Part shown: positions 57,254 to 64,000 of the stretch, one piece after another | Numbering within the stretch: position 1 is the stretch's first letter | How the letters are laid out: each line of letters opens with the position of its first letter | NCBI RefSeq assembly: GCF_963921235.1 | Contig: NC_086107.1 | Location: forward strand, 111,478,001 to 111,542,000 | Direction of reading: 5' to 3' | Length of the DNA: 64,000 nucleotides | Origin: Mobula hypostoma | Lineage: Eukaryota | Notes under the pieces: model-generated | The model's input: only the letters and a program-made list of their open reading frames with translations | What the model was told of the DNA's origin: nothing | Databases searched by the model: none | Position numbers and translations under genes: made by a program

Positions 57254-57634
57254 GGAAAGACGTTAGGACCGGTAAATAGAGAGAGACACACAACTTAGTT
57301 TTCAGTAGGAGGGAAGTGTTGCAAGGATCTGTAGAACAAAGAGATTGTCTATGATAGGACAAGTTCAAGGATCAAGAATCAACTCTATTCACCATACACA
57401 TTTACACGCATTAGGAAGCTGCTGTGGCATGTAAGTACCAACAACAACACATGATATGGAGCAAACTTAGTACACTGGAAACCATCTCCATTAAGCCAGG
57501 AAAAGTCATTGCGGGCACTACCCACCCAGCAAACTGCCTTTTCTGAAAGCTCTCTTCTGAAAAGCTCTATAGAGCCAATAAAATGAAAGCTTTACATCAT
57601 CTTAAAAGTTTTTTCCCCAGGCAGTTAATCTAAT

Positions 57635-57828
57635 GGGGTGTATGGGGTGTCTAGAGAGGGGTAGCACCTGTAGTGTGGGGGTTTGCCGTGCCCTTTTTCA
57701 GGGCAGCTCGTCCACCTCTGGTACCCACCTGGCGCTCAGCTCTCACCTGTGGCTCCAAGTAGCTGTAGCACGCGCAGTGGCCACACCCCGGTAAACCGTC
57801 TCGGCAGACGGGCCAAACCAGGTGAGGG
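57635..57828 (+). ncRNA. HDV-like (nested double pseudoknot) ribozyme, copy 1
   Basis: P1 GGGGTGT 57635-41 / ACACCCC 57783-89; P2 57740-50 / 57817-28; P3 GGC/GCC; L3 TCCAAGT; P1.1 CC/GG 57790-91; P4 CCGTCT/AGACGG; J4/2 G-C-CAA with putative catalytic C at 57,813. Confidence 0.85.
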
Positions 57829-58166
57829 TAGCCGCCGGGTCTTCGACCATCGGTGAGATAGGGGATCTGCCTGTCCCAGCATGTGAAGTCTGGCCATGGC
57901 GGATTGAGCAGAGGAGACCGATTAATGGTCCAACGGTCAGGAAGGCAGGCCAGTGGGCGTTTGTGGAGCGCTAAGAGCACGACAAGGCACTTAGACATCC
58001 TGGTCATCCACTGCAAGAGGTGGTGATCTCTTTAAACTCACCCGGCAGAAGGCAAAGGCAAACCACTGCTGTAACTTGCCACGAACATGATTTCCCAACA
58101 TGTCAGAGTAGCGTGGAGGGAACTCGTCAGCCAACTGGAAATTTCAGATGCGACCTAACGACGACG
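57635..58166 (+). mobile_element. Non-autonomous retroelement with 5' HDV-like ribozyme and RTE-like 3' part (copy 1)
   Basis: Perfect 12-bp TSD AGTTAATCTAAT (57,623-57,634 / 58,167-58,178) and (ACG)n tail. GAAGGCAAAGGCAAACCACT resembles the RTE/Bov-A motif. The 5' 380 nt are colinear with 62,428-62,807. It is inserted in a Rex remnant (KSFFPQAVNLIN). Confidence 0.9.
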
Positions 58167-58779
58167 AGTTAATCTAATCAACCATTCTAGTCAGACCCCC
58201 ACACCCCTCTCTATACATTACATCAATCACTGCACTATGAACTCTTTAAACCATTTTTATAATGCTGTTTACAATATAAATTCATGTTGGTATTTATGTA
58301 TTTATTCCATATATGTATTGGCACAACAAAAGACAACATTCAATAATTATAAGGAGTACAGAATTATTCAGAAATAAGTTAGGGGTTAAAGTACAGAAAT
58401 TGGAATAAATGCATAAATATCAGCCACTTTTAGTCCTCCTAATTTCATCCTTAAAGATCTCTTCCATTTTCTTCAAGATCCCCTGGGTAACAGTCTTGTT
58501 CCTCAGACTTGTGCTGGGTCTTGAAACCTTGCAGAAGACCACAGAGAGAGTGGAAGTGGGATAACGGCCATCAAACAGAGCCAGGGTCACTCCCGCCGGC
58601 TGAGAGAAGGTGCTGCGTGAAACTATCACCCAGTTCACATCTGGTTCCCAACGTAGCGGAGGCCTCATTGTAAATATCAAATGCAGTACAGCACTACAGA
58701 TCCCCTACACTTCTGAATGAGCCCTCATACCTCAAATCTGACATATGGACATACTTTCGTCCTTAAAGACGGCAGAACT

Positions 58780-58989
58780 AACTTCTCTCTCCCTCTCCAT
58801 CCCCTTTTCTCTCTAATACACACACTTACTCTTTCCTTTACACATTCTCCTTCACACATACACACTTACTCTCTCTCTTACATCCTCAAATACACACACA
58901 CACACTACGCACTCTCTCTCTTTCACCCTCACACACACCATTCTCTCTCTCTCCCCTCCCCCTCCTCGCCTCCCCTTCCTCCCCCTCCC

Positions 58990-59035
<46 letters not shown>

Positions 59036-59075
59036 CCCTCCCCCTCCTACCCCTCCCCTCCTCCCTCCCTCTACA
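58780..59075. repeat. Low-complexity (CA)n/(CT)n and homopyrimidine tract
   Basis: Interspersed CA and CT runs, a pure (CT)n at ~58,993-59,030, and CCCCT-rich flanks. Confidence 0.95.
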
Positions 59076-59627
59076 GATAGGAAGCGAACTGCTGATTCAC
59101 CTGCAGAAGTCTCTCTGGAATCTCAGATACTGGGGGGAAGGGAAGAAGTGAAAGGACAGATGTTACGCATTATGTGGCTGAACCATTTTTCAGCTCCCAG
59201 TGCAAAGTGGATTTTTTTAAAACTCACTTCATTCTCACCAACACAATGTGGCAGCGCAGGGAAATTGCAGAGCTCCACACATCTTTGACTTTTCTGTGGT
59301 TTCAAATTACATCCAGCAGGGGGCCCTGGGTACCGACAGGATCAGAAGCTTGTGCTGGTTTCAGGAGGAGGGTCGTCTCCGATACCAGACAATAATGACA
59401 AAGCAGACGGAAGGATGACATATGGAATTTAACACGTTCATTCTGAGTTGATCAGACATCCCACCCTGCAAAAACTCATTTCAGGGAGGTAGCACCATCA
59501 ATTTGCGGGAGACTCCCGGAACTTCCGGGAGAGGTGGGATGTCTGCAATAGAGTAGCTCCTGAGCAGCTAGCCAGCTAGTTTAAATAACATTAGCTATGC
59601 TAATGAACGAATGACTGTTAAACTCAC

Positions 59628-59795
59628 CTCAACATGTCTTTTACAGTCTTAACCCACCATGGGCAATAGAAAAGTCACTGTTGCAAACAGTGCAGCGAGC
59701 AACACTGTCATTATTTTGACCCCTATTAGGCAGGGGTACACTTTAGTGTAGTCTGGGGTGACGTACGTTTTATATTTTTTTTGGAACACTGCCAT
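59628..59795 (-). pseudogene. Frameshifted first exon of a hAT transposase (BED-type zinc-finger region)
   Basis: Manual translation: MAVFQKKYKTYVTPDYTKVYPCLIGVK/NNDSVARCTVCNSDFSIAHGGL/DCKRHVE, then splice donor GAG|GTGAGT. CxxC...FSIxHGG..D..RH is typical of hAT transposase N-termini. Confidence 0.75.
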
Positions 59796-59799
59796 GGCG

Positions 59800-59962
59800 T
59801 GCTCTCTCTCTCTCTATCGTGGTCGCTTTCTCTCTCGCTCTCTCTACCTTGCTCGCGCGCTCTCGCTTGCTTGCTCTCGCTCTCTCTCGCGTGATCTCTC
59901 TCTCGTTGTGGTTCTCGCGCTTTCTCTTTTGCTTTCTCTCTCGCGCTCTTTCGCTCGCTCGC
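59800..59962. repeat. Compound (CT)/(CG) microsatellite inside the hAT element
   Basis: CTCTCTCGCGCTCT-type low-complexity run. Confidence 0.85.
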
Positions 59963-60109
59963 CCTCAAAAAATTGATTTCCGTGATATTGTATATAACTT
60001 CCGGGCATCAGGGAGCCACTATTAATATGCGGGAGACTCCCGGAACCTCCGGGAGGGGTGGGATGTCTGAGTTGATGCATGTTGGTACTTTTAATAAAAA
60101 TAATACGTA

Positions 60110-61310
60110 CACTATGAATGATATGGAACTGGAGAGTATTTAGGAACAAGTGGACTTTGAGGTACATGTCCAAGAATCACTGAAGATGGTTGAGAAGGTG
60201 TGCGAGAGACTTGCTTTCATTTGCCAAGCATACAGCATAGGAACAGGGAGGGCCCGTTTCTGTGCTCTATGACCCCATGACCCTGTGAAGCAAAACAGCC
60301 CGGAATACAGAAACACAAGCATCAACATAGCATGCCCACCACCTTCATCAGAGGGTGCAGGGGAGACTTACCAGGATGCTGCCTGGTCTGAGAGTATGTC
60401 TAATGAAGATAGGTTGAGCGAGCAAGGGCTTTTCTCATAGAAACATAGAAAACCTACAGCACATTACAGGCCCTTCGGCCCACAAAGTTGTGCCGAACAT
60501 GTCCTATGCTCCATGTACCTATCTAAAGGTCTCCTAAAAGACCCCATCGTACCTGCCACCACTACCGTTGCTGGCAGCCCATTCCATGCACTCACCGCTC
60601 TCTGAGTAAAAAACTTACCCCTGACATCACCTCTGTACCTACTCCCCAGCACCTTAACCTGTGTCCTCTTGCAGCAACCATTTCAGCCCTGGGAAAAAAC
60701 CTCTGACTATCCACATGATAAATGCCTCTCATCATCTTATACACCTCTGTCAGGTCACCTCTCATCCTCCGTCGCTCCAAGGAGAAAAGGCCGAGTTCAC
60801 TCAACCTATTCTCATGAGGCATGCTCCCCAATCCAGGCAACATCCTTGTAAATCTCCTCTGCACCCTTTCTATGGTTTCCACATCCTTCCTGTAGTGAGG
60901 CGACCAGAACTGAGCACAGTACTCCAAGTGGGGTCTGACCAGGGTCCTATATAGCTGCAACATTGCCTCTCGGCTCCTAAATTCAATTCCACAATAGATG
61001 AAGGCCAATACACCGTATGCCTTCTTAACCACAGAGTCAACCTGCGCAGTGCTTTGAGTATCCTATAGACTCAGACCCCCAAGATCCCTCTGATCCTCCA
61101 CACTGCCAAGAGTCTTACCATTAATACTATATTCTGCCATCATATTTGACCTCTTTGGAGAGTAGGAGAGTGAGAGGTGACTTGGTAGAGGTGTACGGGA
61201 CGATAGGAGACATAGATTGAGGGGATAGACAGAGACCTGTTATCTTGGGCAGAAATGGCTAGTAGCAGGGGCGTAACTTTAAGGTGATTGGAGGAAAGTA
61301 TGGGGGGGTT
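60110..61310 (+). mobile_element. Old CR1-type LINE fragments, split by an opposite-strand CR1
   Basis: GGGTGCAGGGGAGACTTACCAGGATGCTGCCTGG (VQGRLTRMLPG)...GGGCTTTTCTC | TTTGGAGAGTAGGAGAGTGAGAGGTGACTTGGTAGAGGTGTAC (LFSLE..RVRGDLVEVY) continues after 61,151. Confidence 0.75.
60437..61151 (-). mobile_element. 5'-truncated CR1-type LINE (RT C-terminal region plus 3' UTR)
   Basis: ORF 60592..61032 reads LYRTLVRPHLEYCAQFWSPHYRKDVETIERVQRRFTRMLPGL...LFSLERRRMRGDLTEVYK, with a TTTCTATG-repeat tail. Confidence 0.93.
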
Positions 61311-61454
61311 GTTGTTTGATCTTGGATAAAGAGTTGTTGAAAGAATAATTACACGGATAAACGATTATAAACATAATGAAGTGAACAATCCCAACTTGTG
61401 GAACAGCAGATAGAAACTGGGGATAGCATATCTTCAGGATGCTTATTATGAGTG

Positions 61455-62000
61455 AAACACGGACAGAATGCTGGAGGAACTCAGCGGGCCAGACAGCGTC
61501 TACGGTAATAAACGAAACACTCGATGTTTCGGGCCAAGAACTTTCCTCAGGATTGAGAAGGAAGGGGGGAAGACACCAGAATAAAAAGGTGGGGGAAGGG
61601 GAAGGAGATTAGCTAGAAGGTGGGGAGGAAAGGTAAAGGGGTTGGAGAGGAAGGATTCTGATAAGGGAGGAGAGTGGACCGTGGGAGAAAGGGAAGAAGG
61701 AGGGACACCAGGTGGAGGTGATAGGCAGGTGAGGGGAAGAGATAAAGGGCTGGAGAAGAAGAAATCTGATAGGAGAGGAAAGTGGACCGAAGGAGAAGGG
61801 AAGGAGGAGGGGCACCAGGGGGTGGTGATAGGCAGGTGAAGAGAAGAGGTAAGGGGCCACAGTGAGGAATAAAAGAAGAGGGAAGGGAAGAAGGAAAAAA
61901 TTACCTGAGGGAGTAATCGATGTTCATACCATCAGGGTGGAGGCTACTCAGATTGAATATAAGGTGTTGCTCTTCCATCATGAGGGATGGCCTCATCGTG
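61455..62000 (-). mobile_element. Penelope-like element 3' fragment (end of GIY-YIG endonuclease plus terminal repeat region)
   Basis: Minus strand 61,912-61,985 translates MEEQHLIFNLSSLHPDGMNIDY, followed by a pyrimidine-rich UTR and a hammerhead-like motif. Confidence 0.8.
61515..61556 (-). ncRNA. Decayed minimal type-I hammerhead ribozyme motif
   Basis: Minus strand CAATC-CTGAGGA-AAGTTCTTGGCCC-GAAACATC-GAGTG: CUGANGA and GAAA cores are present but the stems are mismatched. Confidence 0.55.
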
Positions 62001-62427
62001 ATTATTCAGTCCTTCCTCCACATTGTCAAATGCAAGCTGTCAGTTACGGAGATCAAACAGTTCCAAACTGCATTAATGCACTTTAAAGAAGTGATTGAGT
62101 AACTGGGGCTGATAATCAGGCCTCACACGCAATCTGCTTCTTGTTTAGGAAGCTCCACAATTGCTTGCAAATATCTACGTGTGCATACTGGGTAAGCTAT
62201 CCAAGACCTTTTATAGAAAACAATTAGCTTTATTTCCTCTTCAAAAAGACTCCAAATTAGATTAACTTTATTTGTCCCATGTAAATGAAACATAGAAGCA
62301 TACAGTGAAATGGGTCAAGATTTAGGTTTATTTTGCACATTTACATCAAAACATACAGAAAAGTGCGTTGTTTGTGTTGAAAACCAACATAACTAAGTGT
62401 TGTGCGTTCAATATTTCAATACTATTT

Positions 62428-62621
62428 GGGGTGTATGGAGTGTCAGGGAGGGGTAGCACCTCTGGTGGGGGAACATGTCGCGTCCTTTTCAGGGCGGTTA
62501 GTCCACCTTTGGTCCCCACCTGGCACTCAGCTCTCACCTGTGGCTCCCCGTAGCTATTTGCATACGACAGCGGCCACACCCCGGGCAACGGCTTCGACAA
62601 GCCGGCTAAACCAGGTGAGGG
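62428..62621 (+). ncRNA. HDV-like ribozyme, copy 2
   Basis: P1 GGGGTGT 62428-34 / ACACCCC 62576-82; P2 62531-41 / 62610-21; P3 GGC/GCC; L3 TCCCCGT; P1.1 GG 62583-84 then GCAA; P4 CGGCTT/AAGCCG; J4/2 G-C-TAA with putative catalytic C at 62,606. Confidence 0.88.
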
Positions 62622-62985
62622 TAGCCGACGGGTCTCAAACCCTCGGTGAGATAGGGAGTTGTCTATCCCAGCATGTGAAGACAGACTCCGGCGGATTGAG
62701 CGGACGAGACCTATAGAAGGTCCAACGGTCAAGAAGGCGGTCTCTGCAAGCGTTGTGGAACGTGTAGAGCACGACAAGACACGGAAGACGTCCTGATCAT
62801 CCACTGCGCCTAGTCCCATCTCCAGCCATCTCGACTCTGTCTTGCCACTGGATCCAGATGGGAATTGGGAAGAGAGAGTGAGGCTGACGCTGCGCATCTC
62901 TCCCTCACTTAAATCCAAATCTCGCGCTAGTCTCGACACCATCAATGGTGTCAAGGTCTTCATCGACGACGACGATGGACGAACA
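62428..62985 (+). mobile_element. Non-autonomous retroelement with 5' HDV-like ribozyme (copy 2, different 3' module)
   Basis: TSD ACTATTT (62,421-27 / 62,986-92), (GAC)n-type tail, and 5' 380 nt homologous to 57,635-58,014. Confidence 0.88.
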
Positions 62986-63044
62986 ACTATTTGTGTGATA
63001 TCATAAACTTATTGTTTGATTAAGCATTTTTTATAATAATAAAA

Positions 63045-63308
63045 TCACACCGTGGGTTGGCAATGTTTTACAGTGCAGGTGACCCGGGTTCAATTCCCAA
63101 TACTGCCTGCAGGGAGTTTGTACGTTCTCCCCGTGACCGCGCGGGTTTCCTCCGGGTGCTGCACAGTGCAAAAGCGCACCGGTTGGTAGGTTACTTGGTC
63201 GTTGTAAATTTTCCTGTGATTGGGCTGGGGCTAAATCGGAGATTGCTGGGTGCCGTGGCGCGAAGGGCCAGAAGGATCTATTCCACGTTTTTATCTCAAT
63301 TAAATAAG
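63045..63308 (+). mobile_element. tRNA-derived V-SINE (HE1-like), decayed
   Basis: B box GGTTCAATTCC at 63,087-63,097, V-domain-like GGAGTTTGTACGTTCTCCCCGTGACCGCGCGGGTTTCCTCCGGGTGCT, and an A-rich end. Confidence 0.8.
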
Positions 63309-63319
63309 CTTTTAAAAAA

Positions 63320-63722
63320 GCAAGGTCGGGTACTGGTCTTATCGTGGCCACGGAGTCCGAGAGCAAGGAACAACCTGATGCTTGGACAGTTTAAAAGCTG
63401 GGCCAGATTGAAATGGTCGGGGTGTCAGGGTTGGAGGCGAGTGAGGGGCTGATTCGATTTGCTGCTCCACAGGGTTTGCTCAAACCTGTGCTGGACTGAG
63501 GCCGTGGCCTGCACCCAGGAGGCTCTGGATCAGCTGCAGCGATGTCTGGCATTGCGAACTTCAGTTCTGAATGCTGATTGCTTGCTTTTATTGTTTGCAC
63601 AATTTGTTTTTTTCTCTCTCTCCACACATTGGGTGTTCGACAGTCTCCTGTTGTCTTTACAGAGTTCTATACATGCTTTGATAACTATACATATTTTGAT
63701 AATTAATGTGCTTTAAACTCTG
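63320..63722 (+). mobile_element. Probable non-autonomous retroposon (GC-rich body, Rex-like tail)
   Basis: Ends GATAATTAATGTGCTTTAAACTCTGA, similar to the tail at 55,540-55,567, and lies between pieces of the LTR-like element. Confidence 0.45.
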
Positions 63723-64000
63723 ATTCATTGCGGGACGGATGTAAAAGTACGTGAATTGCGTATGTCATGAGTCTAACATGTGATAACTGCGTACTTCATT
63801 TAAAGTAAGAACAAAGGTAGACTTGCCTTCCCGGCTCCTTAGTTTTCCCTGGAATTAGTTTTTATGTTTTGGAGTTATGAAACATAACACTGAGGCTGTT
63901 CTAAGGGCAGCCTGCAAGTGCTGATACATCTTCTGGAGCCAACATAGCTCACTCACGATGCTCGGCTGAACAATGCAGAACACAAGAAACAACAGCACAA

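What the first reader, a model, noticed from the sequence alone, without database searches (positions are those of the whole stretch)
57754..57782. Extra helix inserted in the L3 loop of both ribozymes
Seen: after the canonical L3 heptamer (UCCAAGU; UCCCCGU in copy 2 at 62,545-51) an insert precedes the 3' strand of P3. It can form a hairpin: GCUGU/GCAGU in copy 1, and GCUAUU/GACAGC with one mismatch in copy 2. Established: HDV-like ribozymes commonly vary in J1/2 and P4, whereas L3 is usually 7-8 nt. Inference: this is a structural variant that fixed-length descriptors would miss, which could explain why the family was overlooked.
Basis: partly seen in the sequence, partly recalled or inferred. 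Interest (0 to 1): 0.78.

Follow-up and report, generated by a model that had tools for sequence, protein, structure and literature searches.

The report
Hairpin-sized insert in ribozyme core loop
Two short jumping-gene copies each begin with a hepatitis-delta-type self-cutting RNA fold whose core loop carries an extra 19-21 bases that could form a small hairpin; the insert is real and family-wide, but the hairpin itself is plausible rather than proven.

Summary
In both window copies the L3 heptamer (57754-57760; 62545-62551) is followed by a 19 or 21 nt insert before the P3 3' strand. The stated pairings exist.

The copies are about 530-560 bp non-autonomous non-LTR retrotransposons. Both have target-site duplications and GAC-repeat tails. 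Each starts at G1 of a well-formed HDV-like fold.

Genome-wide, 1948 sites match the flanking core pattern (0 in the control), and 1940 keep the insert. All 30 sampled copies of the youngest subfamily (97-98% identical) keep it. So the insert does not prevent propagation.

Subfamily majority sequences give GCUGUU/GACAGC (6 bp) or GCUGU/GCAGC (5 bp), each with a 7 nt loop. The mismatch in copy 2 and the G.U in copy 1 are private decay.

Evidence that the hairpin forms is moderate:
- It is retained across three subfamilies while its loop changes.
- Its energy is not better than dinucleotide shuffles.
- No compensatory substitution is fixed in any subfamily, unlike P4.

No L3 helix turned up in the papers I could read, but the primary RTE-ribozyme papers were not available. 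Verdict: a probable new structural variant of a known ribozyme class. Cleavage and helix formation are untested.

The parts
57623..57634 (+). copy 1 target-site duplication, 5' copy (AGTTAATCTAAT)
   Evidence: Repeated exactly at 58167-58178.
57635..58166 (+). copy 1: 532 bp non-autonomous non-LTR element, older subfamily F1, GAC-repeat tail
   Evidence: Homology to other copies starts at 57635 and ends at the tail. No ORF of 100 aa or more is specific to it.
57635..57641 (+). P1 5' strand GGGGUGU; predicted cleavage just 5' of G57635
   Evidence: Complementary to ACACCCC at 57783-57789. It is the first base of the element in the fetched copies.
57642..57739 (+). J1/2, about 98 nt, predicted rod-like peripheral domain
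   Evidence: Constrained fold of subfamily copies L011 and L037. The basal part is conserved and the apical part diverges between subfamilies.
57740..57750 (+). P2 5' strand CUCUCACCUG plus U57750
   Evidence: Pairs with 57819-57828 and with A57817. Pairing holds in 96.5% of cells in A3.
57751..57753 (+). P3 5' strand GGC
   Evidence: Pairs with GCC at 57780-57782. Invariant in 31 of 31 distinct rows.
57754..57760 (+). L3 core heptamer UCCAAGU (U...G, and CC for P1.1)
   Evidence: Read. Matches the U / CC / G positions of the published descriptor (passage read).
57761..57779 (+). L3 insert, 19 nt: A + GCUGU + AGCACGC + GCAGU + G (candidate hairpin)
   Evidence: The subfamily majority has GCAGC; the U here is a CpG decay.
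57780..57782 (+). P3 3' strand GCC
57783..57791 (+). P1 3' strand ACACCCC (57783-57789) and GG of P1.1 (57790-57791)
   Evidence: P1.1 paired in 91.7% of cells.
57796..57811 (+). P4 hairpin CCGUCU-CGGC-AGACGG
   Evidence: Five of 6 pairs change on both sides between subfamilies.
57812..57818 (+). J4/2 GCCAA, with candidate catalytic C57813, then A57817 (pairs U57750) and bulged C57818
   Evidence: Read. The C is conserved in at least 90% of rows. The catalytic role is inferred.
57819..57828 (+). P2 3' strand CAGGUGAGGG
62421..62427 (+). copy 2 target-site duplication, 5' copy (ACTATTT)
   Evidence: Repeated at 62986-62992.
62428..62985 (+). copy 2: 558 bp element of the young subfamily F2
   Evidence: The 40 best genomic matches are 97-100% identical.
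62428..62621 (+). copy 2 ribozyme: P1 62428-62434 / 62576-62582; P2 62531-62540 / 62612-62621; P3 62542-62544 / 62573-62575; P1.1 62546-62547 / 62583-62584; P4 62589-62604; candidate catalytic C62606
62545..62551 (+). copy 2 L3 core heptamer UCCCCGU
62552..62572 (+). copy 2 L3 insert, 21 nt: A + GCUAUU + UGCAUAC + GACAGC + G
   Evidence: A62556 is private to this copy: the subfamily has G, which gives a perfect 6 bp stem. Other organisms' contigs read G at this place in nearly all depth.

Best explanation
Both loci are copies of an abundant, SINE-like non-LTR retrotransposon. Its first ~194 nt fold as an HDV-like self-cleaving ribozyme with P1, a long J1/2 rod, P2, P3, P1.1, P4 and a J4/2 cytosine. 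When the element is read through from upstream DNA, the ribozyme most likely cuts just 5' of G1. This would give the RNA the exact 5' end that is later copied into new insertions. The 19-21 nt insert lies between the seventh L3 nucleotide and the 3' strand of P3. It most likely folds locally into a 5-6 bp hairpin with a 7 nt loop that points away from the catalytic core, so the core L3 contacts (U...G pair, CC of P1.1) stay intact. Shown here: the insert, its position, its retention in all subfamilies including the youngest, and element 5' ends at G1. Inferred: self-cleavage, hairpin formation, and that the hairpin is a tolerated or mildly stabilising peripheral helix, possibly a protein handle, rather than part of the chemistry.
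For: The fold fits the published descriptor features G1:Y, CC/GG P1.1 and U...G in L3 (passage read; sequence). P4 shows compensatory change in 5 of 6 pairs across subfamilies. The whole structure is paired in 96.3% of cells against 31.6-53.6% when the partners are slid. Homology among copies starts at G1. Exact target-site duplications of 6 nt or more abut G1 in 17 of 60 loci, including both window copies. The insert is present in 60 of 60 fetched copies and in 1940 of 1948 pattern matches; the 8 exceptions are eight different private deletions. Majority sequences of three subfamilies, which differ by up to ~25-30%, keep the stem. The old F0 and the young F2 have the same 21 nt apart from CpG decay. 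F1 lost one U from the 5' side and one A from the 3' side and changed two loop bases, yet still gives 5 bp and a 7 nt loop. In a fold with the core helices enforced, the hairpin pairs have probability 0.88-0.93 (F1) and 0.32-0.45 (F2). Contigs of four other coded organisms carry the same stem letters, and read G where copy 2 has its mismatching A. The alternative P3 (GGCU/AGCU) is 1.4-5.5 kcal/mol worse than the fragment's minimum-energy fold in all five copies folded; that fold contains the hairpin in three of them (F1, copy 1, F0) and a competing pairing in the two F2 copies.
Against: The hairpin's energy is ordinary for its composition, with z from +0.76 to -1.39. No compensatory substitution is fixed in any subfamily. 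Genome-wide at the third pair there are 41 C.A, 35 U.G and only 2 C:G copies, which is what neutral decay predicts. Copies with A at the first stem base show U / C / A opposite in 47 / 21 / 2 of the older-type rows, by my manual tally of 100 listed rows of 105, which is no excess. The two stem pairs changed on both sides come from rows I fetched after seeing their stem variants: L084 because it carried the doubly changed third pair, L069 and L074 as older-type rows already seen to carry an A:U first pair. The F1 change is not strictly compensatory, because deleting the A alone would still leave 5 bp by slippage. For F2, a competing local pairing involving the L3 G and U lowers the predicted probability. 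F0 and F1 have A where the descriptor has a conserved C before the L3 G, and J4/2 reads C-Y-A-A rather than C-R-R-A. Cleavage has not been measured.
Confidence: 0.55

Rival explanations
1. The insert is a tolerated passenger. The ribozyme is active, but the extra bases in L3 are unstructured or only transiently paired. They have no role and persist only by descent from one founder.
For: Energy is not better than shuffles. No compensated subfamily was found. All copies descend from one family, so conservation could be inheritance. Zero differences in 21 insert positions, against 8 in about 70 other positions between the F0 and F2 majority rows, is only weakly unusual (my count; roughly 9% by Poisson).
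Against: The F1 lineage changed four positions of the insert and none breaks the stem or alters the 7 nt loop size. 141 F1 copies keep the stem C, against 2 with the A.G mismatch. The hairpin is the dominant predicted local fold for F1.
Confidence: 0.25
2. The insert belongs to an alternative, non-catalytic long hairpin. UGUGGC (57748-57753) pairs with GCCACA (57780-57785), with the insert stem on top. This competes with P1 and acts as a folding trap or switch.
For: The fragment fold stacks the insert stem directly on an extended P3. ACA of the P1 3' strand can pair either with UGU of P1 or with UGU next to P3 (read).
Against: Element 5' ends at G1 argue that the P1-containing fold forms in vivo. 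There is no covariation for the extension because all of its positions are invariant.
Confidence: 0.1
3. The HDV-like resemblance does not give an active ribozyme. The uniform 5' ends would come from precise transcription initiation by an internal promoter, and the L3 insert marks a dead core.
For: Cleavage is untested. Rfam gives no hit. J4/2 and one L3 position depart from the design descriptor. A sub-group of young copies carries an uncompensated A at P1 position 6.
Against: All five helices, G1, the P1.1 CC/GG and a J4/2 C are in canonical order, and P4 covaries. No tRNA-like head was found. The family has more than 1900 copies with the core intact.
Confidence: 0.07

Closest known systems
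HDV-like ribozymes at the 5' ends of non-LTR retrotransposons (R2, RTE, Baggins, L1Tc/NARTc)
   Same: The ribozyme occupies the extreme 5' end. Upstream sequence differs at every copy. The presumed role is release from a read-through transcript. Non-autonomous derivatives carrying the ribozyme are known (passages of PMC6765202 read; abstracts of PMC3383444 and PMC3414825 seen).
   Different: L3 carries a 19-21 nt insert. No autonomous partner with a reverse transcriptase was identified here, so the clade (RTE or other) is open.
Large HDV-like ribozymes with a structured J1/2 peripheral domain (P1.2; Webb et al. 2016, PMC4908430)
   Same: A long J1/2 predicted to form a helix that joins P1 and P2. 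That paper establishes peripheral helices as activators (passages read).
   Different: The extra helix discussed here lies in L3, a site for which that paper's passages mention no peripheral element.
Genomic HDV, antigenomic HDV and CPEB3 ribozymes
   Same: The same double-pseudoknot core, with U...G and the P1.1 nucleotides in L3. L3 length already varies by one nucleotide among them: 8 nt (U20-U27) against 7 nt.
R2 ribozyme of the jewel wasp (Eickbush et al. 2013, PMC3774820)
   Same: A natural, active retrotransposon ribozyme whose L3 spacing departs from the norm (passage read).
   Different: That departure concerns the spacing of conserved nucleotides, not an inserted helix.

Membership tests
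HDV-like self-cleaving ribozyme | P1, P2, P3, P1.1 and P4 in the nested double-pseudoknot order | tested here: met
   All five helices can be drawn in both copies. 96.3% of 838 cells are paired in 31 distinct rows, against 31.6-53.6% when the partners are slid.
HDV-like self-cleaving ribozyme | G1 at the cleavage site paired to a pyrimidine; P1 of at least 6 bp | tested here: met
   G57635:C57789 and G62428:C62582, with P1 of 7 bp. The descriptor G1-Y and the 6 bp minimum come from passages read.
HDV-like self-cleaving ribozyme | L3 with a U and G for the reverse wobble pair, and CC pairing to GG after P1 (P1.1) | tested here: met
   UCCAAGU and UCCCCGU, with GG directly after P1. The conserved C before the G is present in F2 but is A in F0 and F1.
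HDV-like self-cleaving ribozyme | L3 length of 7-8 nt | tested here: not met
   26 nt (copy 1) and 28 nt (copy 2) lie between the P3 strands. This is the variant feature itself.
HDV-like self-cleaving ribozyme | Catalytic cytosine in J4/2 (descriptor C-R-R-A) | tested here: inconclusive
   A conserved C (57813; 62606) is followed by Y-A-A, then an A that can pair with the U before P3, then a bulged C. The second position is Y, not R.
HDV-like self-cleaving ribozyme | Covariation supporting the helices | tested here: inconclusive
   P4: 5 of 6 pairs change on both sides. P3 never varies. In P2, 4 of 11 pairs never vary. The insert stem has no unbiased compensatory change.
HDV-like self-cleaving ribozyme | Site-specific self-cleavage | not testable with these tools
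   Indirect only: element 5' ends at G1.
HDV-like self-cleaving ribozyme | Match to a curated Rfam model of the family | tested here: not met
   No match at gathering score over the whole window, and none at E<=10 in 57400-64000. Those models cover specific sub-families and cannot score pseudoknots.
Ribozyme-headed non-LTR retrotransposon | Target-site duplications, a 3' simple-repeat tail and many dispersed copies | tested here: met
   Both window copies have duplications and GAC-rich tails. 17 of 60 loci have an exact duplication abutting G1. 1948 pattern matches occur on many contigs.
RTE clade | An autonomous partner encoding an RTE-type endonuclease and reverse transcriptase that shares the element's ends | tested here: inconclusive
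   No long ORF in either copy. The six loci that diverge after ~382 nt are another short form, not a LINE. A junction pattern search showed no clear further class.

The most novel reading that the evidence does not exclude
The L3 hairpin is a selected accessory module, for example a handle for the reverse transcriptase that mobilises this non-coding element in trans, or a folding aid for the core. On this reading it defines an unrecognised sub-class of HDV-like ribozymes with a helix inside the catalytic loop. Searches that fix L3 at 7-8 nt would have missed the sub-class systematically, including in other genomes.
Probability: 0.2. Interest if true: 0.7.

Novelty: new variant of a known kind. 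Interest (0 to 1): 0.5.

Why it matters
L3 forms one wall of the HDV-type active site, and published descriptors treat it as a short loop of fixed length. A successful family with about two thousand core-intact copies, and a very young subfamily, that carries 19-21 extra bases there suggests the site next to the P3 3' strand is permissive. If so, searches should allow an insertion at that point. It would also offer a natural position for grafting aptamers or protein-binding hairpins into this ribozyme. In addition, this is a large vertebrate-sized genome in which a ribozyme-headed, non-coding retrotransposon has recently been active.

Tried and rejected
- Rfam scans at gathering score and at E<=10 gave no HDV-type hit.
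- I built a covariance model of the 3' domain, but this genome cannot be searched with a model. I used pattern searches instead.
- Compensatory-change counts at the third stem pair and the first stem pair, and a test for a mismatch-bearing F1 sub-group, all fit neutral decay. They say nothing for or against selection.
- The alternative P3 (GGCU/AGCU with a 6 nt loop) was rejected as energetically worse, and because it would bury the L3 U.
- A tRNA-derived head or internal promoter was rejected: ARAGORN found nothing.
- I looked for complementarity between the insert loop and L4 by eye and found no consistent pairing.
- The search for the autonomous partner failed.
- RNA evidence: no RNA holder was listed. 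The four runs laid were contigs only, so they give no 5' ends or expression data.
- Earlier findings of this scan: nothing for this place, this sequence or these words bears on the report.
- Literature: full-text searches and passages of PMC3774820, PMC4908430, PMC8495972, PMC10879173, PMC6765202, PMC6326823 and the CPEB3 preprint show no helix in L3. The primary papers on RTE and genomic HDV-like ribozymes were not held, and their figures and supplements may bear on novelty.
- My recollection about the last L3 nucleotide of genomic HDV could not be verified.

Full report
**What is at the coordinates**

- Copy 1: GGC (57751-57753), UCCAAGU (57754-57760), a 19 nt insert (57761-57779), then GCC (57780-57782).
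- Copy 2: GGC (62542-62544), UCCCCGU (62545-62551), a 21 nt insert (62552-62572), then GCC (62573-62575).
- The proposed stems exist: GCUGU/GCAGU in copy 1 and GCUAUU/GACAGC with one A.C mismatch in copy 2.

**Context: what the two loci are**

The two loci align at 86% identity, and the homology begins exactly at GGGGTGT. Each copy is bounded by a target-site duplication and ends in a GAC-rich tail:
- Copy 1: AGTTAATCTAAT at 57623-57634 and 58167-58178.
- Copy 2: ACTATTT at 62421-62427 and 62986-62992.

The elements are 532 and 558 bp long and carry no ORF of their own. They are therefore short, non-autonomous non-LTR retrotransposons.

The window lies in a 3.48 Gb genome. The first 327 nt of each copy found 3341 and 1932 first-look candidates. 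The 40 scored matches were 89-100% identical for copy 1 and 97-100% identical for copy 2. Copy 2 thus belongs to a very young subfamily (F2) and copy 1 to an older one (F1). A still older group (F0) is about 70-75% identical to copy 2.

**The ribozyme**

From G1 the sequence fits the HDV-like plan:
- P1 GGGGUGU/ACACCCC.
- A J1/2 of about 98 nt that folds as a rod when the core helices are enforced.
- P2 CUCUCACCUG/CAGGUGAGGG.
- P3 GGC/GCC.
- P1.1 from the L3 CC and the GG after P1.
- P4.
- A J4/2 with a conserved C.

On 31 distinct rows from three subfamilies, 96.3% of cells are paired, against 31.6-53.6% when the partners are slid. P4 changes on both sides in 5 of 6 pairs: CCGCUU/AGGCGG, CCGUCU/AGACGG and CGGCUU/AAGCCG. 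P1, P2 and P3 hardly vary, so they say little either way.

The features G1:Y, CC/GG and the L3 U...G agree with a published descriptor (passage read). Two things depart from it:
- F0 and F1 have A where the descriptor has a C before the L3 G.
- J4/2 reads C-Y-A-A instead of C-R-R-A.

Rfam finds nothing, at gathering score or at E<=10. Self-cleavage is inferred from the fold and from the position of the element's 5' end at G1 in the fetched copies. It was not measured.

**Is the insert a family feature?**

Yes.
- All 60 fetched copies carry it.
- The pattern holding the P2/P3/L3 start and the P3/P1 3' strands, with 0-40 free bases between, matches 1948 sites. The reversed control matches 0.
- Only 8 of the 1948 have 14 or fewer bases in the gap, and these are eight different private deletions.
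- All 30 fetched F2 copies (97-98% identical) keep it.
- Contigs from runs of four other coded organisms also hold the family with the same stem letters. They read G where copy 2 has A62556: 1653 of 1658.7, 2101.4 of 2115.3, 2.3 of 2.3 and 19.6 of 19.6 depth.

**Is it a helix?**

Points for:
- The subfamily majority sequences give a perfect stem. F2 and F0 have GCUGUU/GACAGC with loop UGCAUGY. F1 has GCUGU/GCAGC with loop ARCACGC.
- The A.C mismatch of copy 2 and the terminal G.U of copy 1 are private changes in these two copies.
- F0 and F2 differ at 8 of about 70 other positions of the 3' domain but at none of the 21 insert positions, setting CpG decay aside (my count).
- F1 differs from them by four events inside the insert: one U lost on the 5' side, one A lost on the 3' side and two loop substitutions. 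None of these breaks the stem or changes the 7 nt loop.
- With the core helices enforced, the stem pairs have probability 0.88-0.93 in F1 and 0.32-0.45 in F2. In F2 a competing pairing uses the L3 G and U, which the folded core would occupy.
- In my manual tally of the 100 listed matches, 86 have a fully paired stem, counting G.U.

Points against:
- The hairpin is energetically ordinary. Against dinucleotide shuffles z is +0.76, +0.35, -0.17 and -1.39. With mononucleotide shuffles, 527 and 222 of 5000 fold at least as well.
- No compensated variant has spread. At the third pair the genome holds 41 C.A, 35 U.G and 2 C:G copies, close to the product of the single changes.
- 105 copies have A at the first stem base. 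In my manual tally of the 100 listed rows, the older-type rows show U / C / A opposite in 47 / 21 / 2, which matches the CpG decay seen in older copies with G.
- The A.G variant I had seen twice is just those 2 copies, against 141 F1 copies with the normal C.
- These counts reflect neutral decay of dead copies, so they neither support nor reject selection on the source genes.
- The two stem pairs changed on both sides come from rows I chose after seeing their stem variants: L084 for its doubly changed third pair, and L069 and L074 as older-type rows already seen to carry an A:U first pair. I discount them.
- The F1 indels are not strictly compensatory, because loss of the A alone would leave five pairs by slippage.

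**Alternatives considered**
- A P3 drawn as GGCU/AGCU is 1.4-5.5 kcal/mol worse than the minimum-energy fold of the P3-L3 fragment in all five copies folded. That minimum-energy fold contains the hairpin in three of them (the F1 majority-like copy, copy 1 and the F0 copy). In the two F2 copies it is instead the competing pairing through the L3 G and U. The alternative P3 would also bury the L3 U.
- The fragment fold stacks the insert stem on an extended P3, UGUGGC/GCCACA. That extension competes with P1 for ACA and could be an inactive conformer.
- No tRNA-like head is present.

**What is known**
- L3 is U20-U27 in genomic HDV (passage). It is 7 nt in antigenomic HDV and CPEB3 (passages).
- R2 ribozymes vary in J1/2 and P4 and, in one wasp, in L3 spacing (passages).
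- Peripheral activation has been shown for a J1/2 helix (passages).
- A review notes HDV-like ribozymes in RTE, Baggins, LINEs and SINEs, and that the R2 protein binds a pseudoknot within the extended ribozyme region (passages).
- Six full-text searches turned up no helix in L3.
- The primary papers on RTE and genomic HDV-like ribozymes were not held. I therefore cannot exclude prior description.
- The RTE label is untested. No autonomous partner was found.

**Verdict**

The interpretation as an extra helix in L3 of an HDV-like ribozyme is the best reading (about 0.55), but it rests on retention across subfamilies and local fold prediction, not on covariation or energy. It is a probable new structural variant of a known ribozyme class. 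A few cleavage and probing experiments would settle it.

Noticed in passing
window 57642-57739 and 62435-62530: J1/2 is about 96-98 nt. With the core helices enforced it is predicted to fold into one long rod. Its base is conserved and its tip diverges between subfamilies. It resembles the P1.2-type peripheral domain of large HDV-like ribozymes.
   Followed up: partly
window 57635-57650 and 62428-62443: The element starts with a near-tandem repeat, GGGGTGT AT GGGGTGT (in copy 2 the second unit reads GGAGTGT). The second unit could compete with the first for the P1 3' strand.
   Followed up: no
loci L036, L038, L052, L054 (also L033, L045, L058): About 7 of 30 young F2 copies have A instead of G at P1 position 6, with no matching change in the P1 3' strand. 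Some of these copies start 1-2 nt later. This may be a propagating sub-group with an A.C mismatch in P1.
   Followed up: no
window 58011-58016 and 62802-62807; loci L001-L060: The 5' module of about 380 nt ends at ...CATCCACTGC and is joined to three unrelated 3' modules: the F1 copy-1 type, a second F1 type as in L006, and the F2 type. This suggests the ribozyme-bearing head has been recombined with different tails.
   Followed up: partly
window 60592-61062, minus strand: A 156 aa open frame. To my eye it resembles the C-terminal part of a CR1/L2-type LINE reverse transcriptase, but Pfam gave no hit. It is unrelated to the ribozyme elements.
   Followed up: partly
window 58717-59290 and 59730-60010: Long CT/GA-rich low-complexity tracts lie between the two elements. 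All six frames are open with repetitive S/L/P or E/R peptides.
   Followed up: no
window about 63060-63110: Just downstream of copy 2 lies GGGTTCAATTCCC, which looks like a tRNA T-arm or B-box and so perhaps a tRNA-derived SINE. ARAGORN called no tRNA in 57400-63200.
   Followed up: no
window 62404-62700 against runs X1, X5, X9, X10: Contigs from runs labelled as four other coded organisms hold this family, both the AAGU and CCGU L3 types. The family is therefore shared beyond this assembly, though how distant those organisms are is unknown.
   Followed up: partly
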